Shown here one piece after another: positions 43,285 to 57,291 of a DNA stretch of 64,000 bases. This DNA is from a virus (Duplodnaviria > Caudoviricetes): positions 1,022 to 65,021 of IMG/VR virus record IMGVR_UViG_3300017917_002782. One strand, given 5' to 3'. How positions within the stretch are numbered: position 1 is the stretch's first letter; each line of letters begins with the position of its first letter. Under the pieces are notes generated by a model. The model was given only the letters and a program-made list of their open reading frames with translations. It did not search any database and had not been told where the DNA came from. The position numbers and the translations under genes were made by a program.

Positions 43285-43394
43285 ATCAGTAATATAGTTA
43301 ATCTAATTAAATAAAAAAAGGAGAACCGGAGTTCTCCTTTAGGGGCTTGACCGGAGTCTACCTTCCACCACTTGGTTTGGACAAACCAAGAAAA

Positions 43395-43841: not shown

Positions 43842-43900
43842 AATAAATGTTGTTTTTTTTTGTTGTTAATTATGTTGTTTATTTTTTCCCAGATGGGAAA

Positions 43901-44026: not shown

Positions 44027-44031
44027 GAGTA

Positions 44032-44655: not shown

Positions 44656-44681
44656 TAATATTTCAAAGAACTGATGGGTAA

Positions 44682-46754
44682 TTACACACCCATCAATTTT
44701 CCTGTCTCTTCATAAGAGTAACAGAAGTCCTCGTACTTGAAGAATGTATCAACATTCTCGTCAAGAGTAACTTGTTTACCACGACCTTCTACGTGTAGAA
44801 GAACAAGGTCATAAACACTTACCTTTGGTAACTCAGCGTATTGTTGAATTACTTTAATAGTGTTTTTGAAGTCACTTCTTGCGGTTACGAAACCACTTGA
44901 ATCAATGTCCAACATGATGTACTCTTTAGTTTCCAAATCAATAATTGCGATTAACGTATTGGTTGATTTAGATTCCAATGATTGACAATTTGAAATTGTC
45001 TCAGGTAACCATGTCCTGTTTGATTCAGGGTGTTCTCTCTCCATGATACCGAAAGATGTTTCAAGTGTATCCAAACCACGACCATTGAAGTTTCTCACGT
45101 CAATAACCGCATATTTGTAACCACTCTTCAACGCATCTTGGATATCGATGTCGATGTACTCAGCACAAGGTCCTCTTCTGTGTCTCACATCACCTGAGTG
45201 AACTGATTTACCTACTTTCAAGTTACTGAAAGAAAGTACATCACTTTTTTTCTCACCAACAAAGGTAACACTTAAATCCAAGTCTTCAGAACCTCTTTCG
45301 TCCATCCAATGAACAAATGGTCTAATAACTTTTGCATCAGGGTTATCGAGTGGAACTCTTTGACCTCTGATTGTTGGTTTAGTTGAGAAGTTCATACTTC
45401 TCATGTTGGTTGGTAAAGGAATCTTTTTCAACTCCTCATCAATCCAACAGTTACCCAAAGAATCCATTACTGAAAACTTATCTCTAAGTGTTTCAAATAA
45501 TTTAGAGTGGATTGTTTCCACAATCTCTTTAGGAATTGCTGGTAGATTAGGTAATTCAGTACGTTTTCTTGCCCCTTTAATCATAATTGACCTATTTGTT
45601 TTAGGTTCAGTACGACCTTCGAAGTGTGAGTAAACTTCAAACAATACCTTGTTTGATGTACCTTTTACCGCCTCACCGAAGTATTTCATGATAAGTTCAA
45701 TATCTTTTGGATATGTACGAACCAACCAATCCATTCTTCTTGAGAATTCACCTGGTTTTTGAGATAAAACCCTCAAACCATTCTCCAAACCTTTTTTGAA
45801 TGATTCGTTAAGTAACCCATACCAAGAAGTAACCTTCTCGTTACGAATCTTATTGAACGATTCATAAGATTTAGGGAATAATTTCTTATATTCGCCTGGA
45901 TGTAAAATTTCACCCAAACGAACCCATCTTTGGTCTCTTAAAACCATTTCGCGAGTATCGCAATTGGTTTGTTCAAGTAAACCTAAGATGTATTTTCTTT
46001 CTTTACGAGAGAATTTTTTAAATTTGAATTTCTCTCTTTCAGGGTTTGTACCTTTTGTAGATGACCATCTGTTTAATCTAATTTCCTTTTCAGGAACTTT
46101 AGGTAAAGAGATATCACCACCCGAAAGATGAACCGCAATTCTTAACACATCGGTTGTGGTTTTAACTGGTAACCCTTCAATACCCATTGCTGCCAATGTA
46201 CACAAATTTTCTTTGAATGGAATTGTTCCAGGAAAAACAAGTTTATCACCACTTGATACGAACCACTTAACAATCTCAAGATCTTGAGGTGTTAATGAAG
46301 TGTTGATTGACACCAAATCAGTGAAGATTTTTGAAAACCTCTCTGATGTGCCATACTTAATCAAATTGTATTTGATTTTTTCGAACTTAATATCCTTTTC
46401 GTATGTATGGGTTGATGGTTCCCATTGACCATTACTCCAATAGTGCATGATTGCGTTCATGTACAATTCGAAGTCTGACATCACCATAACTTCTTGTGGG
46501 AAGTTTTTATATAATGGTTGGTAATTGCGTTTTCCGCCCATTACATTTTTCAAATGATTCAGAACTTCATCATTGAAGTTTTGGATAAACGATAAATCTG
46601 CTTTGGATAATTCGAAGAAGGCATCTTCGTCTAACATGTATCCCCATTGCATTAAGTGGGATTGTACTGTTGCTACTGCAATTCTGTTGTCCATACCATC
46701 GTTTGGAGGACATACCAAACCTTTTTGAAAGGATACTAAATTTCTTGTTGTCAT
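44682..46754 (-). CDS. helical (ROT/TROVE-like) + C-terminal TerD-like domain protein
   Basis: QPLYKNFP, TTTDVLR, LGEILHPGEY, PGEFSR; TerD-like HW...DLDLS...HSGD...AEYIDID. Confidence 0.75.
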   Translation of the reverse strand: MTTRNLVSFQKGLVCPPNDGMDNRIAVATVQSHLMQWGYMLDEDAFFELSKADLSFIQNFNDEVLNHLKNVMGGKRNYQPLYKNFPQEVMVMSDFELYMNAIMHYWSNGQWEPSTHTYEKDIKFEKIKYNLIKYGTSERFSKIFTDLVSINTSLTPQDLEIVKWFVSSGDKLVFPGTIPFKENLCTLAAMGIEGLPVKTTTDVLRIAVHLSGGDISLPKVPEKEIRLNRWSSTKGTNPEREKFKFKKFSRKERKYILGLLEQTNCDTREMVLRDQRWVRLGEILHPGEYKKLFPKSYESFNKIRNEKVTSWYGLLNESFKKGLENGLRVLSQKPGEFSRRMDWLVRTYPKDIELIMKYFGEAVKGTSNKVLFEVYSHFEGRTEPKTNRSIMIKGARKRTELPNLPAIPKEIVETIHSKLFETLRDKFSVMDSLGNCWIDEELKKIPLPTNMRSMNFSTKPTIRGQRVPLDNPDAKVIRPFVHWMDERGSEDLDLSVTFVGEKKSDVLSFSNLKVGKSVHSGDVRHRRGPCAEYIDIDIQDALKSGYKYAVIDVRNFNGRGLDTLETSFGIMEREHPESNRTWLPETISNCQSLESKSTNTLIAIIDLETKEYIMLDIDSSGFVTARSDFKNTIKVIQQYAELPKVSVYDLVLLHVEGRGKQVTLDENVDTFFKYEDFCYSYEETGKLMGV

Positions 46755-46859
46755 AAATGTTGTATTAAAATGTTTTATTAATGTTGTGGTACAAATATAC
46801 TAAACTTTTTTTAAATGTCAAGTTTTTTTTTATTTTTTTTTAAAAAGGTTCTGAATCGT

Positions 46860-47364
46860 CCCCACGCCATTTTGGGAGAACCTTTCAAGTTTTAGTAGTT
46901 TGGCGATATAGTATCCCTACCTATATTCCCAAGATTCGTTGGAACATAGTAACCATCCAAGGTAGGTCTCTTGTACTTTGGTCCGTCTGTCATCATACCC
47001 ATCCACCTTACGGCTTCTACACAGGTACTCTTTTCACCATTTCCTCAGGACATCTTCACCCTACCCCCAAAGTTACGTGGTGAGTCTCACTCGGAAGCTG
47101 AGTGTGTATTGTAGAATTGTCCAGTATTTCTACAACTTGTGGATTCTATTACGACTAATTAAAGCCCCTTACCCCCTCAATCCATAATGGGGAACTCTTT
47201 TTTAAAGTTTCCAACATACCTGACGGAACTTCCCCATCGTCAGTAAACCCCGTTTATTAGAGGTTATATGAATTTCACTTTTTGTGTATCCTCCCCCATA
47301 GCCTTGAAGACTTCAAGTCAGGTTCACACACCATAACGGACGAGTACCTCCGTTAATCGTGGGG
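46860..47364 (-). ncRNA. ~500-nt ORF-free structured RNA candidate
   Basis: GC-richer than its surroundings, many hairpins, ends CCCCACG/CGTGGGG complementary; directly follows a tRNA. Confidence 0.55.
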
Positions 47365-47368
47365 TCTT

Positions 47369-47443
47369 TGGTGGCTCCGGCGGGAATCGAACCCGCGACT
47401 ACCAGTTTTAGAGACCATAATGTTACCATTACACTACGGAGCC
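47369..47443 (-). tRNA. amber suppressor tRNA (anticodon CTA)
   Basis: GGCTCCG/CGGAGCC-A-CCA; loop CT-CTA-AA; T arm GCGGG-TTCGATT-CCCGC; weak anticodon stem. Confidence 0.8.
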
Positions 47444-47448
47444 ATTCG

Positions 47449-47519
47449 AGGTCGGGGATGGATTCAAACCACCCTAAAAGAGCTTGCGACTCTTCACCTA
47501 ATCGCTCGGTCACCCGACC
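47449..47519 (-). tRNA. degenerate tRNA-Cys(GCA)
   Basis: GGTCGGG/CCCGACC-T; loop TC-GCA-AG; T loop TTTGAAT (non-canonical). Confidence 0.55.
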
Positions 47520-47572
47520 ATTTGTGATTGATAACCTTAATCATCAATCACAGGTACAATATTAGAGATTAG

Positions 47573-47926
47573 TTACAACATCTCCAAATTATTTTGAAGA
47601 TTTTTTTCATAATCTTCTTTTTTGGTTTTTTTCTTAGGTGTATAACCCCTCTTAACTCTTTCTTTTTGAACTCTTTTCTTTAGACTTCTGTCTTGAAAAT
47701 AATTCCTCAATTCTTGAGAAGATTCTTCGTAGATCTTTTTAATTTCATCAAAAAGTTTTGCCTTATCTTCATCAGTTAATTTGGTTTTTCTTTTTTCTCT
47801 AACACAATCCCACCATTCTCTTGAATAGCGTTTGTGTTCGATGCATTCACCTAATAGTTTATGAATCTTGTTCGAGAAAGATGATTTAATCATCATTGTT
47901 GGGTTGTGTTGTGTTGTCTTTTTCAT
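47573..47926 (-). CDS. basic hypothetical protein
   Basis: ORF in the amber operon. Confidence 0.65.
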   Translation of the reverse strand: MKKTTQHNPTMMIKSSFSNKIHKLLGECIEHKRYSREWWDCVREKRKTKLTDEDKAKLFDEIKKIYEESSQELRNYFQDRSLKKRVQKERVKRGYTPKKKTKKEDYEKNLQNNLEML

Positions 47927-47928
47927 TT

Positions 47929-48183
47929 TTAAAAAATTTTAGCTGTTATTATGTTATTATTTTCCTCAATCTCCAAATTTGCTTTGAATTTTATACTCCC
48001 TTTGGTATGAGGATTATCAGGAGTTTCTTTTGTTGAGAATCCCACACCCGGTGAGACATCAACGTGATGAACATAATAAGTGTCGCCCCGACATTTCACA
48101 ACCCACATAGGAATTGTCGGATCTTCCAAGTGTTTTTTGTTAAAGTGAAAAACGATTTCACATTTTTTGTTAATCTACTTCAT
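47929..48183 (-). CDS. hypothetical protein with in-frame TAG at codon 3
   Basis: ATG AAG TAG ATT AAC AAA... in frame with track ORF 47929..48129 (MK*INKKCEIVFHFNKKHLEDPTIPMW...). Confidence 0.7.
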
Positions 48184-48188
48184 GATTT

Positions 48189-48542
48189 TTAAAGATTAAA
48201 TTGTTTATTATATTCCTTTAGAGATAAAGGCAATGATGATGTTAATTTTCTCGTTTCTTCAGTTTCGAGAAAACAAATAGAAGTTAATTGATTCCCAATA
48301 TCGGGTTCAATAAAATAAGACACGGGTATTCCGAGTTCTTCTATTCTATAAAGTAATTTTTGTAATTTTTCTTTTGAATCAATGGATAAAGAAATAAGAA
48401 AATTATTATTCCATTGTTTTGAAAGTTCGGGATGTTCTAAAATGAACTGAGATATTGCATGTCCCGATTGTGCAATTTGATACCCGGGATTTAAGTCTTT
48501 TCGGGTTACGACTATTAGTTTGTTAATCTATAAATTTTTCAT
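48189..48542 (-). CDS. Pth2-like peptidyl-tRNA hydrolase with in-frame TAG at codon 5 (missing from ORF track)
   Basis: MKNL*INKLIVVTRKDLNPGYQIAQSGHA...FIEPDIGNQLTSICF...LTSSLPL; Pth2-like R.DL..G...AQ..HA motif. Confidence 0.8.
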
Positions 48543-48594
48543 AACTATAAATATTGTGTTACAAAGATAAATATTTTTATTTAAAAAACAATCT

Positions 48595-49029
48595 TTAAAT
48601 AAAATTTTTTATTTCTCTTTCAATTTCCCTTTTTTTGATAGTCTCTCTTTTATCGAATTCTTTTTTACCCTTCACCAATGCAACCTCAACTTTAATGAAT
48701 CCCCTTTCACTTAAAAAAATACGATAAGGTATAATCGAGTATCCTTTAATTAAATCGTTTTTTAATTTCAAGAGTTCACGTTTTTTAAGTAATAGTTTTC
48801 TATCTCTGTTGGGTTCGTGTGAGTATGGTGAACCATCACTATTAATATTAATTCCTTTAACAAATAATTCGGTACCATTAAAGAAACAAAAAGAATCGGT
48901 CATAGATGCATTTCCGTTTCTAATTGATTTAACCTCACTACCGGTTAATTTAATACCAGAAATTTCGGTTCGAATAAATGAATACTCGAACCTAGATTTC
49001 CTGTTAACAATTTCAATTTTAGATTTCAT
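48595..49029 (-). CDS. smpB: SsrA-binding protein SmpB
   Basis: NRKSRFEY, GIKLTGSEVKSIR, RKLLLKKRE, KGKKEFDKRE. Confidence 0.95.
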   Translation of the reverse strand: MKSKIEIVNRKSRFEYSFIRTEISGIKLTGSEVKSIRNGNASMTDSFCFFNGTELFVKGININSDGSPYSHEPNRDRKLLLKKRELLKLKNDLIKGYSIIPYRIFLSERGFIKVEVALVKGKKEFDKRETIKKREIEREIKNFI

Positions 49030-49490
49030 TAGATTCTTACTAAGTGATTTGCTCCATAGGTTATCATTGCACCATTGTGTTTGTATCTAACCTTATAACC
49101 CATACCTTCAACCAAACCAACAGCTTGTCTAAGTGCTTTGTTTGATTTGTAACGAGGGTCTGGATTTAAGTCAATATCAATCCACGTTGTTTTTGGTAAA
49201 CCACTATTTTTTAATAGTTCGGCAACCTCAACCGCTTTCCAAACTTCGTTGATAAGTCTTGTTGAAAGGTCTCTCTCCATTTGAGTCGATTCTTTAGTAC
49301 AAAGTACGTGTGCACCTTTTCCTTTCGTGTAAAGTGCTATAACCACACCATAAACGGTTTTACTATTATTATAACATTGAGAATCAGATCCAATTAGAAT
49401 CTCAACATCCTCTTTGTCCGTTAAGTAATTTTTGATGTATTCAACTACATCAGGTATGATTTTTCCATACAATGTTTTAAATGTTCTCAT
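49029..49490 (-). CDS. RNase H-like YkuK family protein
   Basis: ILIGSDSQ, RLINEV, IDIDLN...KSN. Confidence 0.8.
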   Translation of the reverse strand: MRTFKTLYGKIIPDVVEYIKNYLTDKEDVEILIGSDSQCYNNSKTVYGVVIALYTKGKGAHVLCTKESTQMERDLSTRLINEVWKAVEVAELLKNSGLPKTTWIDIDLNPDPRYKSNKALRQAVGLVEGMGYKVRYKHNGAMITYGANHLVRI

Positions 49491-49537
49491 AACAAGTTTC
49501 CTTTCTACATAACTATCTATTTTTTTTAATTTATGTT

Positions 49538-49626
49538 TGGCGGAGAGAGAGGGGCTCGAACCCTCGCGGCTGTAACACCCTATCAGTTTAGCAAACTGAC
49601 CCCTTCACCAACTTGGGTATCTCTCC
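49538..49626 (-). tRNA. tRNA-Ser(GCT)
   Basis: cloverleaf, long variable arm, encoded CCA. Confidence 0.92.
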
Positions 49627-49876
49627 ATTTAGTTTTTCTATTATGCTTCCAAGTTTTATAACTTCTTTTTTTGAAAGACATAAGAAACTTTTTTTTAGAA
49701 TGAGAAATAATTCCATCATCCCAATAAATCGGATAATTAATTCCAATTTGTAAATAACGATATTCTTTATCGTTATGTGCTTTGTCCAGTTTTGCTCTGT
49801 TTCTGTTTTTTGACATAATCTATTGAGTTTATTCAATAGAAGTCGTTCATTTTTTTCATATTGGTAATTTTTGTTG

Positions 49877-49947
49877 TTCTCCCCCAAGGATTCGAACCTC
49901 GATTCTGTGGACCAAAACCACATGTCCTGCCCTTAGACGAGAGGAGA
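49877..49947 (-). tRNA. tRNA-Gln(TTG)
   Basis: cloverleaf, loop TT-TTG-GT. Confidence 0.9.
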
Positions 49948-50063
49948 ATTTTGGATAAGCAGTGACCTCTTATCCATGGTACTTAAGGTTTCGAGTTGTT
50001 TAACGACCTACTCTGAATGTCATCCGCCAGGGTGTACTTGTACCTTAAACCCGGAGCCACTTA

Positions 50064-50141
50064 TGGAGCGAGTAGTCGGACTTGAACCGACCCTATTCCG
50101 CATTGGAAGTGCGGTGCCATAACCAACTAGGCGATACTCGC
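50064..50141 (-). tRNA. tRNA-Gly(TCC)
   Basis: cloverleaf, loop CT-TCC-AA, CCA. Confidence 0.9.
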
Positions 50142-50192
50142 ATGGAGAGGGACAGGTTATTTATACCTTTAAGGGACTCCCTCAGACCCTTG

Positions 50193-50264
50193 AGCAGGTA
50201 ATCAGAATCGAACTGACATCCTCGGCTTGGCAAGCCGATGCACTAACCGTTGTGCTATACCCGC
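50193..50264 (-). tRNA. tRNA-Gly(GCC)
   Basis: cloverleaf, loop TT-GCC-AA. Confidence 0.9.
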
Positions 50265-50321
50265 TTGGAGTGTAGTAGGACTGCAGTTCCTTGAGGTTCC
50301 TACACAAATTATTCCTCTTTG

Positions 50322-50395
50322 TGGGCCTTATAGGATTCGAACCTATCACCTACTGATTATGAGTCAGTTGCTCTAACCTAATGAGCTAAAGGCCC
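50322..50395 (-). tRNA. tRNA-Ile2(CAT), lysidine type reading ATA
   Basis: CAT anticodon with GGGCCTT acceptor body typical of Ile2. Confidence 0.8.
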
Positions 50396-50400
50396 TAAAT

Positions 50401-50946
50401 TTATTCCGGTAAAACAAACTCAATAATGGTGTATCTTACCTCTTCATCATCATAGATTTTGATATTCTCAGGTTCAATGTTATATGAACACATATCACAA
50501 TCCCATAACGCGAATCTCAAACCCTTTTTAAATTCATCCATGTTTTGGATATTCATCAAATCCATAACACACTTTAACGGATTTGGTAAATATTTTTTTT
50601 CCAACATTTTATTGTGTTGATGATATGATTCCCACTTTTCTTTATCTCCATTTTCATCTTTACCATTCCATTCTCCACCATGTCTTGTTGTTATATACCA
50701 CTCATTATTCAACCTTTCATTTTCCAATGTGTCTTCTTCAGATACTTCAATCACATTGTGTGTTTGTAGTGGATCTGTTGATAATGTTGGTAAATGATGA
50801 TTAACAATATTCAACCCAACATAATATCCAAGTTGGTAATTAACAGTTAAGTTTTTCCTTTTTTCAATCCTCTCTTGTTTCCATTTTTCTTCCATTTCTG
50901 GAGTTATGGATTTAAGAAAGTCTTCAAATACTTTACTTCTAGCCAT
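50401..50946 (-). CDS. hypothetical protein inside tRNA operon
   Basis: 181-aa ORF between tRNAs. Confidence 0.7.
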   Translation of the reverse strand: MARSKVFEDFLKSITPEMEEKWKQERIEKRKNLTVNYQLGYYVGLNIVNHHLPTLSTDPLQTHNVIEVSEEDTLENERLNNEWYITTRHGGEWNGKDENGDKEKWESYHQHNKMLEKKYLPNPLKCVMDLMNIQNMDEFKKGLRFALWDCDMCSYNIEPENIKIYDDEEVRYTIIEFVLPE

Positions 50947-50961
50947 GACTTATTTTATTTG

Positions 50962-51043
50962 TGCCCGCAGATGGACTCGAACCACCGAACTCCGAAGAGG
51001 ACAGATTTACAGTCTGTTGCAATTGCCGCTATGCGATACGGGC
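50962..51043 (-). tRNA. tRNA-Tyr(GTA)
   Basis: cloverleaf with variable arm. Confidence 0.9.
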
Positions 51044-51055
51044 ATTTATTTTTTG

Positions 51056-51135
51056 TACCTCGGGTCGGACTCGAACCGACACGTCTCTCGACACGGTTTC
51101 TAAGACCGCTGTGTATACCATTCCACCACCAAGGC
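51056..51135 (-). tRNA. tRNA-Leu(TAG)
   Basis: cloverleaf, loop CT-TAG-AA. Confidence 0.9.
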
Positions 51136-51226
51136 AAATTGTGGGACATCGCTTAACCCACAGTGATTGTACTTCTCACTTTTGACGTTACCATATTTTT
51201 ATATGTTGGCATCTAACGATTTTTTG

Positions 51227-51298
51227 CTCCCCGGGGGAATTTCGAAATCCCGACCCCATGATTAACAGTCATGTGCTCTGCCTCTGAGCTACCGAGGA
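51227..51298 (-). tRNA. tRNA-Asn(GTT)
   Basis: cloverleaf, loop CT-GTT-AA. Confidence 0.9.
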
Positions 51299-51646
51299 AG
51301 TTTGTGTGTCTTCCCACACCTCCAGATTGTTCCCCTCACCACTCTAATTTCTTAGTGTAGGAATCGAACCTACATGGGCGACTTACCGTAACCTCAATCA
51401 ACGAGTGGACTCGAACCACATTCGTAGTTGGGAGAGGATTCGAACCCCTTCAGGGAGCTACCCGTCATCCATGACCTTCCATCGGACTCGAACCGACCTT
51501 CTACCATAGCCCAACTATTTTCACTTTCCATTACAAAGTGTAAGTAGGTTTAGTTGCGAACTTTCCTTTCAGTGGGACTCTCATGGTTTTTCGTAGAGTC
51601 TGTTATCCCACAATTTTAACACATTGACTACATGTGTTGAGCATCG

Positions 51647-51743
51647 CAGTTAGAACAGGAATCGAACCTGCGTCTTAGTTACTTTGTTTTAACTGTAATT
51701 CTACAAAACATTTCACTACGTGGTGCCACTCCACTATCCAACT
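51647..51743 (-). ncRNA. tRNA-like RNA with expanded anticodon arm
   Basis: acceptor AGTTGGA/TCTAACT and T arm GCAGG-TTCGATT-CCTGT; no 7-nt anticodon loop. Confidence 0.55.
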
Positions 51744-51947
51744 ATTTCGGGACGAGAGTAAGCTGCTCTCATTTGTCCCTACTTTTTTCTATCGTTTGAG
51801 TTTCAATTTAAGGTCTGGAAACTCCTTCGGTAAGGAAAGAGACCACAGTTTTCTGGTAAACTTACAAAAACCCCAAATTGCTTACATTGTTACTTTAACG
51901 TCTCAACAATCAAACTCATTCGGAAGAACTCGAAAAAAGACGGCTTG

Positions 51948-52062
51948 CCGACTAAAAAGGGTTTGAACCTTAATCCTGCATCCCCTTTCAGAACCGGCGA
52001 AAGCGTAATGCTTTTCGTATTCTTACTCCGTTCTGCTGTGCCACCTATTACACCATAGTCAA
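51948..52062 (-). ncRNA. tRNA-like RNA with expanded anticodon arm
   Basis: acceptor TTGACTA/TAGTCGG, D arm, CAGAAC...GTTCTG arm, T loop TTCAAAC. Confidence 0.5.
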
Positions 52063-52112
52063 TCGAGAGTTTCGAACCTCTCAGGTGCCGAGTTAATTAC
52101 TCTCGGACTTTG

Positions 52113-52187
52113 TAGAGTATGCGAGACTCGAACTCACACGATGTCTTCATCCCAAATGAAGCGGCTTACCAATTAGCCCAATACTCT
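52113..52187 (-). tRNA. tRNA-Pro(TGG)
   Basis: cloverleaf, loop TT-TGG-GA. Confidence 0.88.
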
Positions 52188-52192
52188 ATGAA

Positions 52193-52328
52193 AAGATAGT
52201 GATGGGATACCCGTCTCGTCCCAATCTTAATTGCTTCCTGAGTTTTAATGAGGCCTCAGCAAAGGGTGCTGAATTCCGATTCCACTCTGGATTGTCGACA
52301 TCCAGTGAGTGGGGAAAACCACTATCTT
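52193..52328 (-). ncRNA. structured RNA between tRNAs
   Basis: closing stem AAGATAGTG/CACTATCTT around several hairpins. Confidence 0.5.
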
Positions 52329-52330
52329 AG

Positions 52331-52404
52331 TACCCCCAACAGGATTCGAACCTGTGGCCCACAGTTTAGAAAACTGTTGCTCTATCCAGCTGAGCTATGG
52401 AGGC
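52331..52404 (-). tRNA. tRNA-Arg(TCT)
   Basis: cloverleaf, loop TT-TCT-AA. Confidence 0.92.
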
Positions 52405-52409
52405 ATTTG

Positions 52410-52494
52410 TGCTCGAGGCGGGAATCGAACCCGCACGGATGTTGAGTCCACAGAATTTTAAGTCCTGCGTGTCTACCAGTTCCACCACCCGAGC
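52410..52494 (-). tRNA. tRNA-Leu(TAA)
   Basis: cloverleaf, loop CT-TAA-AA. Confidence 0.92.
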
Positions 52495-52546
52495 AATTTT
52501 TTTACCAATATGTCAAAGAACACAACAAATATAAATCAAAAGGTTT

Positions 52547-52585
52547 AAAAAACAAAAAACCCGAACATTTTATTGTCCGGGTTTC
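52547..52585 (-). terminator. attenuator terminator of tRNA operon 1
   Basis: AAACCCGGACA/TGTTCGGGTTT stem followed by a U tract. Confidence 0.8.
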
Positions 52586-52611
52586 TTTTATAAGTTTTTA
52601 TAATTTTTGAC

Positions 52612-52716
52612 TTACACTTTTTCGAAATCCGAACATGGATGACATAAATATATACCTCTCCCATTGCCACTAAGTGGGTTGTTTGACGGTTGTTGTATGT
52701 TTACCAAATTTTTCAT
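52612..52716 (-). CDS. leader peptide 1 MKNLVNIQQPSNNPLSGNGRGIYLCHPCSDFEKV
   Basis: lies between promoter (TATCTTTG at 52738-52745) and terminator; carries antiterminator segment 52624-52635. Confidence 0.75.
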   Translation of the reverse strand: MKNLVNIQQPSNNPLSGNGRGIYLCHPCSDFEKV

Positions 52717-52796
52717 TCGTTTTTCAAATAAGTATCACAAAGATACGAAAAGTTTTTAAAATATCAAACTTTTTTTTAAAATATTTTTATTTTTTG

Positions 52797-52868
52797 TAGC
52801 CCCTACGGGAATCGAACCCGTCTTTTCAGGATGAAAACCTGATGTCCTAACCGATAGACGAAAGGGCC
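52797..52868 (-). tRNA. tRNA-Glu(TTC)
   Basis: cloverleaf, loop TT-TTC-AT. Confidence 0.9.
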
Positions 52869-52904
52869 ATTTAACAATTATTGGTCTTTAACTTTATTTA
52901 TGTC

Positions 52905-53210
52905 TTAGGAGTGTAAAACTTCCTTTTGACTATTTTTTATTTTGTTTTCCAATTTATCTAATCGAGAGTCTAATTGGGAAAAGACCTCTCTTTCTGTGTT
53001 ATCAATCCTTCGATTTACATCATCATGGTTATGATTAATTAAATCATAGATTTCTTTTTTTATGTTATCCAATTCATTGGATAGATTATTTTGAAAAGAT
53101 TCTAAGTTCTTTTCCACTTTTCCTACCTTGACGTATCCAACCACAGCCAGTATTGCAATTACAACACCAACCACAGAAGACACCCCTAAAATAAATGATA
53201 ATGTTTCCAT
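52905..53210 (-). CDS. TM + coiled-coil protein
   Basis: start moved to METLSF; the upstream part of the track ORF is tRNA-Ser. Confidence 0.7.
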   Translation of the reverse strand: METLSFILGVSSVVGVVIAILAVVGYVKVGKVEKNLESFQNNLSNELDNIKKEIYDLINHNHDDVNRRIDNTEREVFSQLDSRLDKLENKIKNSQKEVLHS

Positions 53211-53257
53211 AATTTTAAAGTTGTTTTTAAATTTGTCAAAGAACAATAATTGTTTTG

Positions 53258-53340
53258 CGGAGGATGAGGGAATCGAACCCCCAAGGCTTTTACACCCAGC
53301 TGATTTCAAGTCAGTGTCCTCGTCCATTCGGGCACCCTCC
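53258..53340 (-). tRNA. tRNA-Ser(TGA)
   Basis: loop CT-TGA-AA, long variable arm. Confidence 0.88.
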
Positions 53341-53352
53341 TTTATTTTTTTG

Positions 53353-53486
53353 TGGTTAGGACAGGAGTTGAACCTGTATCACCGGATTAGTATACTTACG
53401 GCATTCGTCCTCAGTTATCTATTTTACAAGTCACCTCACAGGACTAAGCGTCTTCCCGAACAAATATGTTCTTCCGCCACCTAACC
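53353..53486 (-). ncRNA. tRNA-like RNA with D-loop hairpin and large anticodon-arm insert
   Basis: acceptor GGTTAGG/CCTAACC, TTAGT...ACTAA stem, T arm ACAGG-TTCAACT-CCTGT. Confidence 0.6.
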
Positions 53487-53713
53487 AAAATTTGCCCCAC
53501 ATTGAGATTCGTGTGAGGACTAGATTGCGTCGGTTTCTTTCACTGTTTCAAGAACCTGTTGCATCTCTGCGTTTAAACCCGTCAACCCAACGTTGGAGGA
53601 ACTGGATATTGAACCTTTATCCCAACGACCCCCTCTTTAAGTTACGGAGGAGACAACTATATCATTTGATCACCAAAACGATACCAAATGGTCTGAGTAT
53701 CTCTTACTCATTG

Positions 53714-53786
53714 CAGTCCCAACGGGAGTTGAACCCGCTCCATACTCCGTGACAGGGAGATATCTTAACCGTTTGACCTTGGGACT
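53714..53786 (-). tRNA. tRNA-Asp(GTC)
   Basis: loop CT-GTC-AC. Confidence 0.85.
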
Positions 53787-53793
53787 GTATGTG

Positions 53794-53878
53794 AGCCTCC
53801 TGACGGATTCGAACCGCCGATGTTCTTTCGATTCCTGATTACAAATCAGGTGCTCTCGACCAACTAAGCGAAGGAGGC
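53794..53878 (-). tRNA. tRNA-Thr(TGT), long variable region
   Basis: loop TT-TGT-AA. Confidence 0.85.
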
Positions 53879-53885
53879 TTATTTG

Positions 53886-53958
<73 letters not shown>

Positions 53959-54013
53959 ATGTTATATCCAAATATAGATAAAATATTTTAAAGAACAAAA
54001 TGTTTTTTAAAAG

Positions 54014-54087
54014 TTGCGGGGGAGGGAATCGAACCCTCGTCATTCAGCTTATGAGACTGAGCTGGTACCTCTCCAGTCCACCCCGCA
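54014..54087 (-). tRNA. tRNA-Met(CAT)
   Basis: loop CT-CAT-AA, lacks GGG/CCC. Confidence 0.82.
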
Positions 54088-54092
54088 ATATT

Positions 54093-54169
54093 TGGTTGGA
54101 ACAATAGGAATCGAACCTATAACCTTTCGCGTATCAGACGAATGCTCTAACCAATTGAGCTATATTCCA
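54093..54169 (-). tRNA. tRNA-Ile(GAT)
   Basis: loop CT-GAT-AC, CCA. Confidence 0.9.
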
Positions 54170-54262
54170 ATAAGAGTCCCGTTTGCAATTTTTCAATTAC
54201 TTCATAAGGGTTTAGTTTCATTCATCCATCACGGGACCACGAGGAGAACTAATTCCTTACTT

Positions 54263-54338
54263 TGGGTGACCGAGGAGGTTCGAACTCCCGACCCTCTGAA
54301 CCACAATCAGGTACTCTACCAACTGAGCTACAGCCACC
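54263..54338 (-). tRNA. tRNA-His(GTG)
   Basis: loop TT-GTG-GT, G-1. Confidence 0.9.
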
Positions 54339-54394
54339 ATATTATAAGGTCTGAGACTTATAATTGTCAATTATAAGGTTATAACCTTATATTG

Positions 54395-54477
54395 AGCTCA
54401 TGGACGGATTTGAACCGCCGTGGACCTAAGTCAATGGTTTTGCAGACCACTCCATTCAACCACTCTGGCACATGAGC
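54395..54477 (-). tRNA. tRNA-Cys(GCA), long variable arm
   Basis: loop CT-GCA-AA, U73. Confidence 0.85.
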
Positions 54478-54482
54478 ATTTG

Positions 54483-54555
54483 TAGTTCCTAAAGGATTCG
54501 AACCCTTATCAAATCATCCGTAGTGATTTATTCTATCCAATTAAACTAAGGAACC
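54483..54555 (-). tRNA. tRNA-Arg(ACG)
   Basis: loop CT-ACG-GA. Confidence 0.88.
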
Positions 54556-54558
54556 ATC

Positions 54559-54990
54559 TTATTTTTGTATGTTATCCCAATCTTCTTGTGTGCCCAACTT
54601 AATTGGTACAAACAATGCAAACCCATCATCATCTTCAAAGTGGTTACATTCATCTTCTCTCCAACCAAATTTGTATCTCATGTATTCAAATTTGTTTTCT
54701 TTTTGATTCCATCGAGCAATGGTTGTTCTTCTATGTTCACCAATATAAATTTGACCATCAATCAAATCTTTTTTTGGTATTGCACCAGCCTTAATAAGTT
54801 TTGGTACATAGAACTCTTTCCACTCTTTTTCATCCACCACCGGTAGTTGAGGAACATCTTCTGGATTATTGAATTTTGGTAATTCATTTTCCCAATATTC
54901 TTTAATCTTTTTCAATTTTTCTTCTTTCATCTTCATTTTCTCCGCCTCAAACTTCATTTTGGCGGCATCCAATCCTATTTGATTATTCAT
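54559..54990 (-). CDS. hypothetical protein inside tRNA operon
   Basis: 143-aa ORF between tRNAs. Confidence 0.7.
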   Translation of the reverse strand: MNNQIGLDAAKMKFEAEKMKMKEEKLKKIKEYWENELPKFNNPEDVPQLPVVDEKEWKEFYVPKLIKAGAIPKKDLIDGQIYIGEHRRTTIARWNQKENKFEYMRYKFGWREDECNHFEDDDGFALFVPIKLGTQEDWDNIQK

Positions 54991-55006
54991 AATTTTGTTT
55001 TTTAGT

Positions 55007-55093
55007 TGGCACGGACGGTAGGATTCGAACCCACGATGAACTTTCGTTCCCGGTTTTGGAGACCGTTGCCTTTAACCACTCGGCCACGTCCGT
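55007..55093 (-). tRNA. tRNA-Trp(CCA), long variable arm
   Basis: loop CT-CCA-AA, GAAC-GAAA-GTTC arm, G73-CCA. Confidence 0.85.
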
Positions 55094-55102
55094 GTATTTT
55101 TG

Positions 55103-55178
55103 TAGTTCCTATTGGAGTCGAACCAATGATCTTCACTTTGTAAGAGTGACGCTTTAAAACCAACTAAGCGAAGGAACT
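55103..55178 (-). tRNA. tRNA-Val(TAC)
   Basis: loop CT-TAC-AA. Confidence 0.88.
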
Positions 55179-55185
55179 ATCTTTG

Positions 55186-55259
55186 CACCGCCTGGGGGAC
55201 TCGAACCCCGACCTTCTGAGTGACAGTCAGATATACCAAACCATTATACGACAGACGGT
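55186..55259 (-). tRNA. tRNA-Asp(GTC)
   Basis: loop CT-GTC-AC, slightly atypical acceptor/T junction. Confidence 0.78.
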
Positions 55260-55267
55260 GTTTATTG

Positions 55268-55352
55268 TGACCCCGGTGGGACTCGAACCCACGACTCCCA
55301 CATTAAAAGTGTGGTACTCTAAGCTTACGCAAACCAACTGAGTTACGGAGTC
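55268..55352 (-). tRNA. tRNA-Lys(TTT) with D-loop insertion
   Basis: loop CT-TTT-AA; D loop carries an extra GC-GTAA-GC. Confidence 0.85.
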
Positions 55353-55359
55353 ATAAAAA

Positions 55360-55435
55360 TGGTGGTGACGAGTGGAGTCGAACCACTATCATCGGATTTT
55401 CAGTCCGTTGCATAGACCACCTTTGCTACGTCACC
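55360..55435 (-). tRNA. tRNA-Phe(GAA)
   Basis: loop CT-GAA-AA, CCA. Confidence 0.9.
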
Positions 55436-55467
55436 AAGTTAAACCAATATGTCAAAGAACCTATTTG

Positions 55468-55538
55468 TGGAATATTTGGGATTCGAACCCATACCTCCCG
55501 CCGTCTAGCGGTTGCACATCCTTATGTGCTTTTATCCC
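55468..55538 (-). pseudogene. tRNA-like element with no readable anticodon
   Basis: D and T arms present, G3-U70 pair, anticodon loop shortened (CCGC-TAGACG-GCGG). Confidence 0.55.
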
Positions 55539-55543
55539 TTTTG

Positions 55544-55616
55544 TGGACCGTCCGGGACTTGAACCCGGGACTGAAGCTTGCAAAGCTACCGTGTTAGCCA
55601 ACTATACCAACAGCCC
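55544..55616 (-). tRNA. tRNA-Ala(TGC)
   Basis: loop TT-TGC-AA, G3-U70. Confidence 0.9.
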
Positions 55617-55618
55617 AT

Positions 55619-55654
55619 AAACAAAAAAACCTCGAGAGATTATCCCGAGGTTTT
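55619..55654 (-). terminator. attenuator terminator of tRNA operon 2
   Basis: AAAACCTCGGGA/TCTCGAGGTTTT stem plus U tract, immediately before tRNA-Ala. Confidence 0.85.
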
Positions 55655-55682
55655 AATATATTTTGTTTTCAATTATAACAAA

Positions 55683-55778
55683 TTACACAATCCCTCGGGA
55701 CATACGAATATCAGCCACCTCTGCCCATTTCGAACAGGTTGTAAATGACATTGTGATAATATGTGTAAATCGTTTCAT
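55683..55778 (-). CDS. leader peptide 2 MKRFTHIITMSFTTCSKWAEVADIRMSRGIV
   Basis: lies between promoter (TACCTTTG at 55825-55832) and terminator; carries antiterminator TCCCGAGG (55693-55700). Confidence 0.8.
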   Translation of the reverse strand: MKRFTHIITMSFTTCSKWAEVADIRMSRGIV

Positions 55779-55965
55779 CGAATTTTTTATTTATTAGTTT
55801 TTACTTTATTTCTTAAATCGAATACAAAGGTAATCATAAATACCAATATAAACAAGAAAAAAACAATTTTTTTTAAAAAATATTTTTTTTTAGTCAAAAA
55901 AAGAATCGTTTAAGTCCAATATTTATTGGTGATACAATTATAAACACAAAATTAAAAAAACAATT

Positions 55966-56535
55966 ATGGAAAACAAAACAAACACAGGTTTTAGAGAACT
56001 TTTAAGTTCAATGATGAAAAGAAGATGGTATATCACCGCCATGGTTCTTGGAGGATTTATGTTAATTATGGGTGGTATATTCGTTGCGATTTTCGACAAA
56101 AACGAAATAAGTGGTGAATGGAAAGAATTATTATTGTTATTGTTGGGTGCGTTTATCGGATCTTATGGTAAAATAATTGATTACTGGTTCAGTGATACCG
56201 ACAAAGACAAAATGTTGGTGCAAAAAATGGATGAAGAAGATGGTACTGCGTTATCTAACACAGCAGATTTACCAAACAACCCACCGACACCACAAACACC
56301 GATGGTGTTAAGTACTGAATCAACAACAACCAGTTCTGAATCACCATGTGAGAAAAAAGGTGTTGAAGTTGATGAAGATGGTGATGGTGTTATGGATGGT
56401 TTAGATTTTGATAATGATGGTGTTATTGATGAGTATTTCCCACATCGTCAGTGTGAACACGTTTGGGGCGACTCAAATAATGATGGTGAATTGGAATGTT
56501 TAAAGTGTGGATTATTGAAAGAATTGCAGGATTAA
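55966..56535 (+). CDS. two-TM membrane protein with acidic DxDGDG repeats
   Basis: two TM segments, DEDGDG/DFDNDG, CxH...CxxC. Confidence 0.7.
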   Translation: MENKTNTGFRELLSSMMKRRWYITAMVLGGFMLIMGGIFVAIFDKNEISGEWKELLLLLLGAFIGSYGKIIDYWFSDTDKDKMLVQKMDEEDGTALSNTADLPNNPPTPQTPMVLSTESTTTSSESPCEKKGVEVDEDGDGVMDGLDFDNDGVIDEYFPHRQCEHVWGDSNNDGELECLKCGLLKELQD

Positions 56536-56865
56536 TCAGTCATTAACCCCAATTTTTTGGTATAATGCATGAATTTCTCCACAAGTTTCATAATCTTCTA
56601 TCGACTCAAAATATGGTAGAACTTCTTTATACAAAACAATAACATTCTCTCTTGAGAACTTTAAATCGGCTTCCCAATGAAGCCCGTTAATTTTAGCAGA
56701 AAGGACAAGGATTAGATTATTCTTGTCCTTTCTTTTTAAACTCTTAAATAAAGAAAAAATATTTTGATATATTAGTGTTTTATTTTCATTATAAAAACTA
56801 TTATAATCTTTGTATTCTTCTCCTACTCTTAGTTTTTTTATGATGGTATCTTTTGGTTTTTTCAT
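56536..56865 (-). CDS. hypothetical protein (UVR-like EDYETC motif)
   Basis: ORF translationally coupled to upstream gene. Confidence 0.65.
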   Translation of the reverse strand: MKKPKDTIIKKLRVGEEYKDYNSFYNENKTLIYQNIFSLFKSLKRKDKNNLILVLSAKINGLHWEADLKFSRENVIVLYKEVLPYFESIEDYETCGEIHALYQKIGVND

Positions 56866-57275: not shown

Positions 57276-57291
57276 TGTATAATTTTTTTTA

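What the first reader, a model, noticed from the sequence alone, without database searches (positions are those of the whole stretch)
49538..52745. Second codon-matched attenuator heading tRNA operon 1 (complementary tRNA set)
Seen: promoter (52738-52745), a 34-codon ORF (52716-52612), a terminator (52585-52547), then Leu(TAA), Arg(TCT), Pro, Asn, Leu(TAG), Tyr, Ile2(CAT), Gly(GCC), Gly(TCC), Gln and Ser(GCT). Leader codons 3-24 are AAT TTG GTA AAC ATA CAA CAA CCG TCA AAC AAC CCA CTT AGT GGC AAT GGG AGA GGT ATA TAT TTA. 20 of these 22 fall in boxes served by this operon's tRNAs, and all 11 tRNAs are covered, including isoacceptor-specific ATA, AGA and AGT. Further on, TGTTCGGATTTC (52635-52624) pairs at 11/12 positions with the terminator 5' arm GAAACCCGGACA. 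Both leaders end GTG-TAA. The two operons split the genetic code between them and each leader mirrors its own half, which argues against chance. Caveat: a TATATTTG -7-like element at 52526-52533 could be a bypass promoter.
Basis: partly seen in the sequence, partly recalled or inferred. Interest (0 to 1): 0.93.

Follow-up and report, generated by a model that had tools for sequence, protein, structure and literature searches.

The report
Codon-matched attenuator before phage tRNA genes
A large uncultured phage places a tiny test gene, written in the codons that the next eleven tRNAs read, plus a switchable transcription stop in front of those tRNA genes, so it probably makes more of them when ribosomes read those codons slowly.

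Summary
The window is a fragment of an IMG/VR phage record.

The 34-codon ORF is a real conserved element. Twelve distinct homologues keep the promoter, the ATG, an open frame with only in-frame indels, an invariant GTTCGGA that copies the terminator's 3' arm, and the terminator.

The codon match alone is modest: 21 of 33 codons, 11 of 11 tRNAs, joint P about 1e-3. But the design recurs in 15 leader families with different cores in related phages. Pooled, 239 of 413 codons are served against 134.6 expected, and 122 of 127 tRNAs are sampled against 80.6 expected (combined P about 1e-25). A swap control and a synonymous-codon test also pass.

Leader content partly tracks tRNA relocation between operons.

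Caveats:
- The downstream TATATTTG is conserved and resembles the tmRNA promoter module, so a bypass promoter is likely.
- There are no RNA data.

Six literature searches found no published account. This scan noted the same design earlier on other phage DNA.

The parts
52765..52768 (-). -33-like TTTG of promoter P1, 19 nt upstream of the -7 box
   Evidence: Read from the sequence. A TTG is kept at this position in most homologues. The Bacteroidota promoter consensus is recalled, not tested.
52738..52745 (-). -7 box TATCTTTG (TAnnTTTG) of promoter P1
   Evidence: TAnnTTTG is kept in 11 of the 12 aligned homologues; L034 has TAAATTTA.
52612..52716 (-). Leader ORF of 34 codons plus TAA
   Evidence: The ATG, an open frame of 32-36 codons and only in-frame indels are kept in 12 of 12 distinct homologues.
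52645..52710 (-). Sensing core, codons 3-24. 20 of 22 are read by operon-1 tRNAs and all 11 tRNAs are sampled.
   Evidence: In L028, L034, L036 and L037 the equivalent core is almost purely operon-1 codons.
52624..52635 (-). Region 2, the antiterminator strand TGTTCGGATTTC. Its GTTCGG core copies the terminator's 3' arm.
   Evidence: It pairs at 11 of 12 positions with 52585-52574. GTTCGGA is invariant in 12 of 12 homologues while the neighbouring tail positions vary. When region 4 is left out, the 2:3 helix is the MFE at -14.5 kcal/mol.
52574..52587 (-). Region 3, the terminator's 5' arm
52547..52567 (-). Region 4, the terminator's 3' arm TGTTCGGGTTTTTT, plus the T tail
   Evidence: 96.6% of cells are paired across the 12 homologues.
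52526..52533 (-). P2, a second TAnnTTTG (TATATTTG) behind the terminator and a probable bypass promoter. A TTTG in the terminator's T tract (52556-52553) lies 19 nt upstream.
   Evidence: The motif is present in the spacer of 10 of 10 leader-1 family rows. The same TATATTTG-N4-box arrangement precedes the tmRNA gene.
52510..52522 (-). boxA-like block TGTTCTTTGACAT just before the first tRNA
   Evidence: Exact match here, and one-mismatch copies on the same strand at 53245-53233 and 55461-55449. Conserved in 12 of 12 homologues, with one substitution in L037. The likeness to the rrn boxA is recalled, not tested.
52409..52494 (-). tRNA-Leu(TAA)
52330..52404 (-). tRNA-Arg(TCT)
52112..52187 (-). 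tRNA-Pro(TGG)
51226..51298 (-). tRNA-Asn(GTT)
51055..51135 (-). tRNA-Leu(TAG)
50961..51043 (-). tRNA-Tyr(GTA)
50321..50395 (-). tRNA with anticodon CAT, Ile2-like by likeness to the phage's tRNA-Ile(GAT)
50192..50264 (-). tRNA-Gly(GCC)
50064..50141 (-). tRNA-Gly(TCC)
49876..49947 (-). tRNA-Gln(TTG)
49538..49626 (-). tRNA-Ser(GCT), the last tRNA of the block. No strong terminator follows before the RNase H-like and SmpB genes.

Best explanation
This is a ribosome-mediated (leader-peptide) transcription attenuator that gates entry into a phage tRNA operon and senses the supply of the tRNAs that the operon encodes.

Proposed mechanism:
1. Transcripts from P1, and probably read-through from operon 2, which ends 50 nt upstream with no terminator, carry a 34-codon ORF.
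2. Codons 3-24 are a checklist of the codons read by the 11 downstream tRNAs.
3. If all are decoded quickly, the ribosome reaches the end of the ORF and covers region 2. Region 2 ends 10 nt before the stop codon. Regions 3 and 4 then fold into the terminator and transcription stops.
4. If any checklist codon is decoded slowly, the ribosome stalls at least 12 nt upstream of region 2. Region 2 then pairs with the terminator's 5' arm, and RNA polymerase runs on over a boxA-like element into the tRNA genes.
5. A second promoter (P2) behind the terminator probably gives an ungated basal supply, so the attenuator adds an on-demand boost.

What is shown: the anatomy, its conservation, the codon-to-tRNA match and its recurrence. 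What is inferred: translation of the ORF, stalling, the switch itself, P2 activity and the direction of regulation.
For: (1) Anatomy is as described.

(2) Conservation across 12 distinct homologues, drawn from the window and 18 loci, at about 70-78% identity:
- The ATG, the open frame and the terminator are kept in all 12. The P1 -7 box fits TAnnTTTG in 11 of 12 (L034 has TAAATTTA).
- All ORF indels are multiples of 3.
- In the otherwise variable ORF tail, the invariant columns are one T, the 7-nt GTTCGGA and the stop-codon region.
- The TCG Ser codon inside GTTCGGA makes up only 8% of Ser codons in this phage, which points to an RNA-level constraint.

(3) The window's two leaders are mutually exclusive and match their own operons: 21/12 against 1/29 (Fisher P = 2.1e-7). 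This holds at the synonymous level. Leader 1 uses ATA twice and AGA. Leader 2 uses ATT/ATC four times and CGA/CGT three times, although AGA is 66% of Arg codons.

(4) A composition-blind scan of the window plus 58 related loci gave 43 distinct candidate ORFs:
- One representative of each of 15 families gives 239 of 413 codons served against 134.6 expected.
- 122 of 127 tRNAs are sampled against 80.6 expected.
- Fisher combined P = 1.8e-27, or 2e-25 with three non-matching candidates included.
- Re-pairing leaders with other operons never reached the observed score in 100,000 permutations.
- A test conditioned on the amino acid gives 48 of 70 synonymous choices served against 34.3 expected (P = 2e-4).

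(5) In 26 of the 43 candidates, a segment 1-28 nt before the stop (47-38 nt before the stop of the wrong-frame ORF picked in L051) is complementary to the terminator's 5' arm, better than 95% of shuffles.

(6) Natural swaps:
- In L028, L034 and L037, tRNA-Thr sits in operon 1 and leader 1 has 2-3 Thr codons in its core.
- In L036, tRNA-Thr stays in operon 2 and the leader-1 core has none.
- The leader-2 core loses Val where tRNA-Val has left operon 2.
- L039 and L040 share the leader head and tail, but the core is rewritten (FTICSKWADETR against FMNPQITWNEQP) to fit a different cargo: Pro, Asn, Trp, Gln, Thr, Asp, Ser and Glu.

(7) In 15 of the 43 candidates the first tRNA starts 3-15 nt after the terminator. 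That leaves no room for a promoter, so in those cases tRNA transcription must pass the terminator.
Against: - No transcript or ribosome data exist for this phage.
- P2 is conserved behind the terminator in this family, in 10 of 10 rows. It resembles the tmRNA promoter module, so much operon-1 transcription may bypass the attenuator.
- The antiterminator is short. The 6-bp core never breaks, varying only U-A to U-G in 2 of 12. An A-C mismatch is present in 12 of 12, and the outer pairs are weak. It therefore has no covariation support; shuffles score equally. The duplex is -10.0 kcal/mol against about -18 for the terminator.
- Most checklist codons occur only once to five times, not in long runs, so single stalls may be weak.
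- Mismatches: K2, V5 (GTA) and S11 (TCA) are operon-2 codons, and V5 is kept in this clade although tRNA-Val is in operon 2.
- Leader 2 keeps Thr codons in loci where tRNA-Thr has moved. L025 and L011 have a Thr codon in leader 1 although their tRNA-Thr is in operon 2.
- A 5'-UTR:region-2 pairing seen in the window's MFE is not conserved in the homologues, so no conserved region 1 or pause hairpin was found.
- More distant phages with 30-38 tRNAs (L066-L069) show no convincing leader.
Confidence: 0.8

Rival explanations
1. The units are separate. P2 is the real and only relevant promoter of operon 1. The hairpin simply ends operon 2 and a small P1 transcript. The short ORF is an independent micro-gene or an untranslated frame, and its codon match has no regulatory role.
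For: The TAnnTTTG behind the terminator is conserved in 10 of 10 family rows. A TTTG lies 19-20 nt upstream of it. The same promoter-plus-box module precedes the tmRNA gene, which needs a promoter of its own. For this leader alone the codon match is only P about 1e-3.
Against: This does not explain the invariant copy of the terminator arm inside the ORF. It does not explain the operon-specific synonymous choices, the gain of Thr codons together with tRNA-Thr, or the same design in families whose terminator abuts the first tRNA.
Confidence: 0.1
2. The ORF is translated and regulatory, but it works as a general sensor of translation stress, or as a cis-acting arrest peptide, and not as a tRNA-specific checklist.
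For: With 9 amino acids sampled, any global slowdown of elongation would also cause stalling. The neighbourhood holds tmRNA, SmpB and an RNase H-like gene, which fits a general response to ribosome stalling.
Against: A general sensor would not need codon sets that exclude each other between the two leaders of one phage, nor cores that are rewritten when the cargo changes. Peptide sequence is not conserved between families, while codon class is.
Confidence: 0.07
3. The match is chance, or a by-product of phage codon usage: phage tRNAs serve the phage's frequent codons, so any phage ORF would match.
For: The operon-1 tRNAs already read 42% of the codons in the phage's long frames.
Against: The background was taken from the same phage's long frames and is exceeded. 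The within-phage contrast between the two leaders and the swap permutations remove any usage effect.
Confidence: 0.03

Closest known systems
Multivalent leader-peptide attenuators of enterobacterial amino-acid operons (thrL, ilvL, ivbL; also hisL, trpL, leuL, pheL). Recalled knowledge; pheL appears in the listing (PMC3082878, title and start of abstract only).
   Same: A promoter, a short ORF with regulatory codons, a segment at the ORF's end that can pair with the 5' arm of an intrinsic terminator, and a T-tailed terminator before the controlled genes.
   Different: The controlled genes are tRNA genes, not biosynthetic enzymes. The checklist covers 9 amino acids and 11 tRNAs with 1-5 codons each, not runs of one to three amino acids. 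Synonymous choice is specific to the isoacceptor. The element is in a phage with TAnnTTTG-type promoters. There is no sequence likeness to the Rfam leader families.
pheM-pheST attenuation in E. coli
   Same: Leader-peptide attenuation applied to a component of the decoding machinery for the sensed amino acid.
   Different: It controls an aminoacyl-tRNA synthetase for one amino acid, not tRNA genes. It is cellular, not viral.
T-box riboswitches
   Same: They couple the state of a specific tRNA to a choice between terminator and antiterminator.
   Different: T-boxes bind uncharged tRNA directly and need no translation. Here there is an ORF, and Rfam reports no T-box at E up to 1.
The silent trn tRNA array of Anabaena sp. 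PCC 7120, induced by translational stress (PMC8421152, passages read; PMC10272220, abstract read)
   Same: An accessory tRNA operon switched on when translation is impaired, next to RNA-repair genes.
   Different: Control there is at the promoter, through direct repeats and the repressor TrcR. The words 'attenuat', 'leader peptide' and 'terminator' do not occur in the main text of PMC8421152.
rrn-type boxA antitermination (recalled)
   Same: A boxA-like 13-mer lies on the transcribed strand just after the attenuator and before stable-RNA genes.
   Different: The likeness is by motif only. Nus-factor binding was not tested, and copies also sit between tRNAs with no promoter nearby.

Membership tests
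Ribosome-mediated (leader-peptide) transcription attenuator | A promoter directly upstream of a short ORF | tested here: met
   TTTG, 19 nt, then TATCTTTG, ending 21 nt before the ATG. The -7 box fits TAnnTTTG in 11 of 12 homologues. Promoter activity was not measured.
Ribosome-mediated (leader-peptide) transcription attenuator | A short translatable ORF kept open in relatives | tested here: met
   34 codons here, and 32-36 codons in 12 of 12 homologues, with only in-frame indels. Translation itself could not be tested here.
Ribosome-mediated (leader-peptide) transcription attenuator | Regulatory codons enriched for what the operon supplies | tested here: met
   20 of 22 core codons; 11 of 11 tRNAs; joint P about 1e-3. 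Family-wide P is about 1e-25, and the swap and synonymous tests pass.
Ribosome-mediated (leader-peptide) transcription attenuator | An intrinsic terminator between the ORF and the controlled genes | tested here: met
   A 14-pair hairpin plus T tail at 52587-52547. 96.6% of cells are paired in 12 homologues.
Ribosome-mediated (leader-peptide) transcription attenuator | A mutually exclusive antiterminator that uses the ORF's 3' part and the terminator's 5' arm | tested here: inconclusive
   Pairing at 11 of 12 positions in the window, and it is the MFE when region 4 is absent. The 6-bp core is kept in 12 of 12, but there is no covariation and the outer pairs are weak. The duplex beats 96% of shuffles.
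Ribosome-mediated (leader-peptide) transcription attenuator | Read-through that depends on leader translation and on supply of the sensed tRNA | not testable with these tools
   No RNA holder was listed for this stretch.
Rfam leader families (His_leader, Thr_leader, Leu_leader, Trp_leader and others) | A score at or above the family's gathering threshold | tested here: not met
   No leader-family hit at 52547-52745 at E up to 1. The only such hit is His_leader, 27 bits against a threshold of 49, on the other leader at 55620-55759.
T-box riboswitch | A match to the T-box covariance model (specifier loop and T-box motif) | tested here: not met
   No T-box hit in 41000-57500 at E up to 1.

The most novel reading that the evidence does not exclude
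Large phages with Bacteroidota-type promoters run their tRNA genes by a self-referential feedback. Each tRNA block sits behind an evolvable 'codon checklist' ORF that is rewritten whenever tRNA genes move in or out of the block. A block is transcribed past its terminator only when the ribosome has trouble with a codon that the block's tRNAs read. Followed by a boxA-like element, and lying next to tmRNA, SmpB and RNA-repair genes, this would be a sense-and-resupply circuit. It would let the phage answer depletion or cleavage of host tRNAs block by block.
Probability: 0.65. Interest if true: 0.9.

Novelty: new variant of a known kind. Interest (0 to 1): 0.85.

Why it matters
Leader-peptide attenuation is a textbook control for amino-acid biosynthesis. 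I found no paper applying it to tRNA genes.

If it works as read, tRNA supply in these phages is under closed-loop control by the ribosome itself. Isoacceptor-level specificity would be written in a 20-25 codon checklist.

That would help explain how large phages deploy big tRNA sets. It offers natural, compact sensors for single tRNA species. It would also make the idea that phage tRNAs answer host tRNA depletion directly testable.

The relatives provide natural swap experiments, because leader cores change with tRNA cargo. Such evidence is rare for a regulatory hypothesis built from sequence alone.

Tried and rejected
- **Close relatives in GenBank phages.** Megablast of 20 kb against GenBank phage records gave only short matches (59 to about 400 nt, tRNA-sized or one hypothetical gene) in 9 records. 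There is no close isolate, so no annotation could be borrowed.
- **Rfam at E up to 1.** No known leader or riboswitch family lies on this leader.
- **RNA evidence.** No RNA holder was listed. Two runs of one study hold 6% of the sampled words, as contigs only. I did not lay them, because contigs cannot show starts or ends.
- **Covariation for the antiterminator.** It is uninformative because the core barely varies. I do not claim covariation for leader 1.
- **A region 1.** In the window's MFE the 5' UTR pairs with region 2. The UTR sequence is not kept in the homologues, so I dropped it as a general feature.
- **Low-threshold ARAGORN with introns on the Pro-Asn gap.** It gave only intron-bearing predictions, which I regard as unreliable.
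- **fold_alignment.** Including L011 was my mistake. Its Arg-Pro spacer is 689 nt and not homologous, which distorted the alignment. Only the five short rows are meaningful.
- **ORF choice in my scan.** The scan takes the longest ATG ORF, which is the wrong frame in L036 and L051.
  - In L051 the frame ending by region 2 reads MKNLLNNGRPQQHPQVDEWGYYV before Arg, Pro, His, Gln, Gln.
  - In L045 a leader that the scan missed reads MNTMVNIIKSIKHISVK... before Lys, Val, Ile, Ser, His.
  - I kept L051 as a miss in the statistics.
- **Family grouping.** I grouped the 43 candidates into 15 families by eye, not by clustering. Several leaders share an MKN(L/I)N or MR(Q/T) head, so the families may share ancestry at the 5' end.
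  - Left out of the family test as homologues or variants of a representative: L014, L016, L018, L023, L024, L025, L011, L030, L032, L033, L035, L037, L038, L040, L045, L057.
  - Also left out: L026 (partial operon) and the wrong-frame ORF of L036.
- **Loci that could not be tested.** L046-L050, L059-L061, L063-L065 and L070 hold no plus-strand tRNA; L062 holds two, L027 four and L066 38 with no candidate; in L028 the scan found none, though leader 1 is there by hand. L067-L069 hold 30-36 tRNAs and gave only weak hairpins and one non-matching candidate.
- **T-box and protein-repressor control** were considered. Neither has support here.

Full report
**Source and setting.** The window is bases 1022-65021 of a 65,021-base IMG/VR virus record that CheckV rates 21% complete. 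It is therefore a fragment of a large phage. On the minus strand ARAGORN finds 28 tRNAs and a tmRNA. Rfam adds a second tRNA-Asp at 53714-53786 and a weak tRNA-like element at 55468-55538. An SmpB gene (146 bits) and an RNase H-like gene (67 bits) follow the block in question on the same strand. Megablast against GenBank phages found no close relative.

**Checking the observation.**
- TATCTTTG is at 52745-52738, with a TTTG 19 nt upstream.
- The ORF runs 52716-52612 and reads MKNLVNIQQPSNNPLSGNGRGIYLCHPCSDFEKV.
- The hairpin 52587-52554 plus its T tail is the strongest terminator-like site in 46000-58000.
- The 11 tRNAs are as listed.
- Under ordinary wobble rules 20 of the 22 codons 3-24 are read by these tRNAs. 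GTA and TCA are not. Each of the 11 tRNAs has a cognate codon.
- TGTTCGGATTTC pairs with GAAACCCGGACA at 11 of 12 positions.
- The CAT tRNA is Ile-like: 68% identical to the phage's tRNA-Ile(GAT) and 43-51% to the other two CAT tRNAs.
- TATATTTG is at 52533-52526.

**Is it more than chance at this locus?** I used the whole ORF, not the hand-picked core, and the codon usage of the window's own long open frames as background.
- 21 of 33 codons are served (background 0.42, P = 0.01).
- 11 of 11 tRNAs are sampled (simulated mean 8.0, P = 0.018).
- Joint P is about 1e-3.
- The contrast with the window's other leader (55778-55683, MKRFTHIITMSFTTCSKWAEVADIRMSRGIV) is sharper. Leader 1 has 21 own-operon and 12 other-operon codons. 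Leader 2 has 29 and 1 (Fisher P = 2.1e-7).
- The split holds among synonymous codons. Ile is ATA twice in leader 1 and ATT/ATC four times in leader 2. Arg is AGA in leader 1 and CGA/CGT three times in leader 2, although AGA makes up 66% of Arg codons in this phage.
- Leader 1 also spells its three Gly residues with GGC (2% of Gly codons), GGG (10%) and GGT, so both Gly tRNAs are sampled.

**Conservation.** Two proteins encoded inside the tRNA blocks brought in 12 and 57 related viral loci. The leader-1 region was found in 18 of them and gives 12 distinct sequences including the window, at about 70-78% identity.
- All 12 keep the ATG, an open frame of 32-36 codons and the terminator; 11 of 12 keep the TAnnTTTG of P1 (L034 has TAAATTTA).
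- The three indels inside the ORF are all 3 nt long.
- In the ORF tail the amino acids vary freely. The invariant columns there are one T, a run of seven (GTTCGGA) and the stop-codon region.
- GTTCGG is the same string as the core of the terminator's 3' arm, so it can take the 5' arm away from it.
- The Ser codon fixed inside it, TCG, is only 8% of Ser codons here, which argues for an RNA-level constraint.
- The terminator is paired in 96.6% of cells across the homologues.
- The antiterminator's six inner pairs are kept in 12 of 12. Because they barely vary there is no covariation evidence, and the outer pairs are weak.
- Folding the window's RNA up to region 3 gives the 2:3 helix as the MFE (-14.5 kcal/mol, z = -2.8). 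Folding the whole leader gives the terminator.

**Geometry.** Region 2 begins 12 nt after the first base of codon 24, the last checklist codon, and ends 10 nt before the stop codon. A ribosome stalled in codons 3-23 should leave region 2 free. A ribosome at the end of the ORF should cover it but not region 3, which starts 26 nt after the last base of the stop codon. That is the classical attenuator layout. It rests on recalled ribosome footprint sizes and is inference.

**The same design with different cores in relatives.** I scanned the window and 58 loci with a script blind to composition. It looked for a hairpin plus T run within 150 nt upstream of a same-strand tRNA, and took the longest ATG ORF of 15-70 codons ending within 90 nt upstream. 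It returned 43 distinct candidate peptides. Many have cores unrelated to the window's leaders, yet each mirrors its own cargo:
- MRTLTLQRQQLLQLLK... lies before Arg, Leu, Gln, Leu.
- MTTLVNIKKSISVIVKHI... lies before Lys, Ile, Ile, His, Val.
- ...SWSYSPCSAYP... lies before Tyr, Pro, Ser, Trp, Cys.
- MKMLLCHISMSLSHSMS... lies before Cys, Met, His, Ser, Leu, Leu.
- ...HTTTSSSTSTSSCDED... lies before Ser, Ser, Thr, Cys, His, Thr, Ser, Glu, Asp.
- One 31-codon leader samples all 19 tRNAs behind it.

Statistics on one representative from each of 15 families:
- 239 of 413 leader codons are served, against 134.6 expected.
- 122 of 127 tRNAs are sampled, against 80.6 expected.
- Fisher combined P = 1.8e-27. 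It is 2e-25 when three non-matching candidates are added, and 3e-23 without the two leaders of the window.
- Re-pairing leaders and operons gave a summed score of 3.8 +/- 0.5 (maximum 6.4) against 8.58 observed, reached in 0 of 100,000 permutations. The own operon ranked first of 18 for 8 leaders.
- Conditioned on the amino acid, 48 of 70 informative synonymous choices are the served ones, against 34.3 expected (P = 2e-4).
- In 26 of the 43 candidates a segment just before the stop (1-28 nt; 47-38 nt for the wrong-frame L051 ORF) is complementary to the terminator's 5' arm, better than 95% of shuffles.
- In 15 of 43 the first tRNA starts 3-15 nt after the terminator, which leaves no room for a promoter.
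- One apparent miss, in L051, is a wrong-frame pick. The frame that ends by region 2 reads ...GRPQQHPQ... before Arg, Pro, His, Gln, Gln. I kept it as a miss in the statistics.

**Natural swap experiments.**
- In L028, L034 and L037, tRNA-Val and tRNA-Thr sit in operon 1, not operon 2. In L036 only tRNA-Val does.
- The leader-1 core has 2-3 Thr codons in the first three and none in L036 or in the window's clade. In these four loci the core (codons 3 to about 27) is all operon-1 codons, apart from one TCT in L036.
- The leader-2 core reads AEVAD where tRNA-Val is in operon 2 and ADER where it has left.
- L039 and L040 have nearly the same leader head and tail at the DNA level. The core is FTICSKWADETR before Ile, Phe, Lys, Trp, Arg, Cys, His, and FMNPQITWNEQP before Pro, Asn, Trp, Gln, Thr, Asp, Ser, Glu.
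- In the leader-2 family, region 2 and region 3 show a compensatory change: C to T paired with G to A in L025 and L011.

The tracking is not perfect.
- The window's clade keeps a Val codon at position 5 of leader 1.
- Leader 2 keeps Thr codons where tRNA-Thr has moved.
- L025 and L011 have a Thr codon in leader 1 although their tRNA-Thr is in operon 2.

**The bypass promoter.** The TATATTTG behind the terminator is not noise.
- A TAnnTTTG lies in the spacer in 10 of 10 leader-1 family rows. It occurs in only 2 of the 33 other candidates.
- By my reading of seven homologues, a TTTG in the terminator's T tract sits 19-20 nt upstream of it.
- The tmRNA gene is preceded by the same arrangement, TATATTTG, 4 nt, then a related 13-mer.
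- That 13-mer (TGTTCTTTGACAT at 52522-52510) recurs on the minus strand with one mismatch at 53245-53233 and 55461-55449, between tRNAs and without a promoter motif. It also lies behind attenuator terminators of other families.
- It resembles the rrn boxA as I recall it. Another note of this scan says the same.

I therefore read operon 1 as having two inputs. One is ungated from P2. The other is gated, coming from P1 and from operon 2, whose last tRNA ends 50 nt upstream of P1 with no terminator between them.

**Comparison with what is known.** The anatomy is that of enterobacterial leader-peptide attenuators, and closest to the multivalent ones. It matches no Rfam leader family and no T-box.

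Six full-text searches found no paper on leader-peptide attenuation of tRNA genes. The nearest item in print is the Anabaena trn array. It is induced by translational stress through promoter repeats and the repressor TrcR (PMC8421152, passages; PMC10272220, abstract).

This scan has recorded the same design on other phage genomes. I did not test those records.

**Verdict.** The attenuator reading is well supported by comparative and statistical evidence, and I give it about 0.8. Two reservations remain: a probable downstream promoter in this family, and the absence of any expression data. It is a new variant of a known mechanism, applied to a new class of target genes.

Noticed in passing
window 52510-52522, 53233-53245, 55449-55461 (minus strand); weaker copies at 53985-53997 and 42510-42522: A boxA-like 13-mer (TGTTCTTTGACAT and one-mismatch copies) lies only on the tRNA strand: after the attenuator, between tRNAs, before an embedded ORF, and in weaker form before the tmRNA. 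It also follows attenuator terminators of other leader families in related loci.
   Followed up: partly
window 52188-52329 (minus strand), between tRNA-Arg(TCT) and tRNA-Pro: A spacer of about 145 nt is closed by a 9-bp stem (AAGATAGTG...CACTATCTT). It is conserved in L014, L016, L020 and L034, with compensatory changes in inner helices. There is no Rfam match. It is an unknown structured RNA inside the tRNA operon. L036 and L037 have only a short spacer here.
   Followed up: partly
window 51299-52111 (minus strand), between tRNA-Pro and tRNA-Asn: An 813-nt stretch without long ORFs or tRNA calls holds six T-arm-like hairpins (5-bp stem, TTCGAnT-type loop), four of them within 51357-51497. Pro and Asn are adjacent in L016 and L020, so this is an insertion. 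Its nature is unknown.
   Followed up: partly
window 53714-53786 and 55468-55538 (minus strand): A second tRNA-Asp(GTC), missed by default ARAGORN, and a degenerate tRNA-like element with no clear anticodon lying between tRNA-Ala and the boxA-like motif.
   Followed up: yes
window 55620-55832 (minus strand): The sister attenuator of operon 2. All 14 amino acids of its tRNA set appear in the 31-codon leader, with only one outside codon. Its region 2 (TCCCGAGG) is a perfect 8-bp complement of the terminator's 5' arm. The first tRNA starts 7 nt after the terminator.
   Followed up: partly
window 52612-52644 and the leader tails in L034, L036, L037: The ORF tails that overlap region 2 are written mostly in the other operon's codons: the leader-1 tail in operon-2 codons, and the leader-2 tail of L034, L036 and L037 largely in operon-1 codons. 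This may be chance or cross-talk between the two blocks.
   Followed up: no
window 48595-49490 (minus strand): An RNase H-like gene (PF04308) and SmpB follow tRNA-Ser(GCT) with no strong terminator between them, so they may be co-transcribed with operon 1 and share its control.
   Followed up: no
L011 8838-9526: In this relative the Arg-Pro spacer is replaced by about 690 nt that read like coding sequence, so it is an insertion inside the tRNA operon.
   Followed up: no
related loci: Many leaders with different cores begin MKN(L/I)N or MR(Q/T). Either they share an ancestral 5' module, or an A-rich start is favoured for initiation.
   Followed up: no
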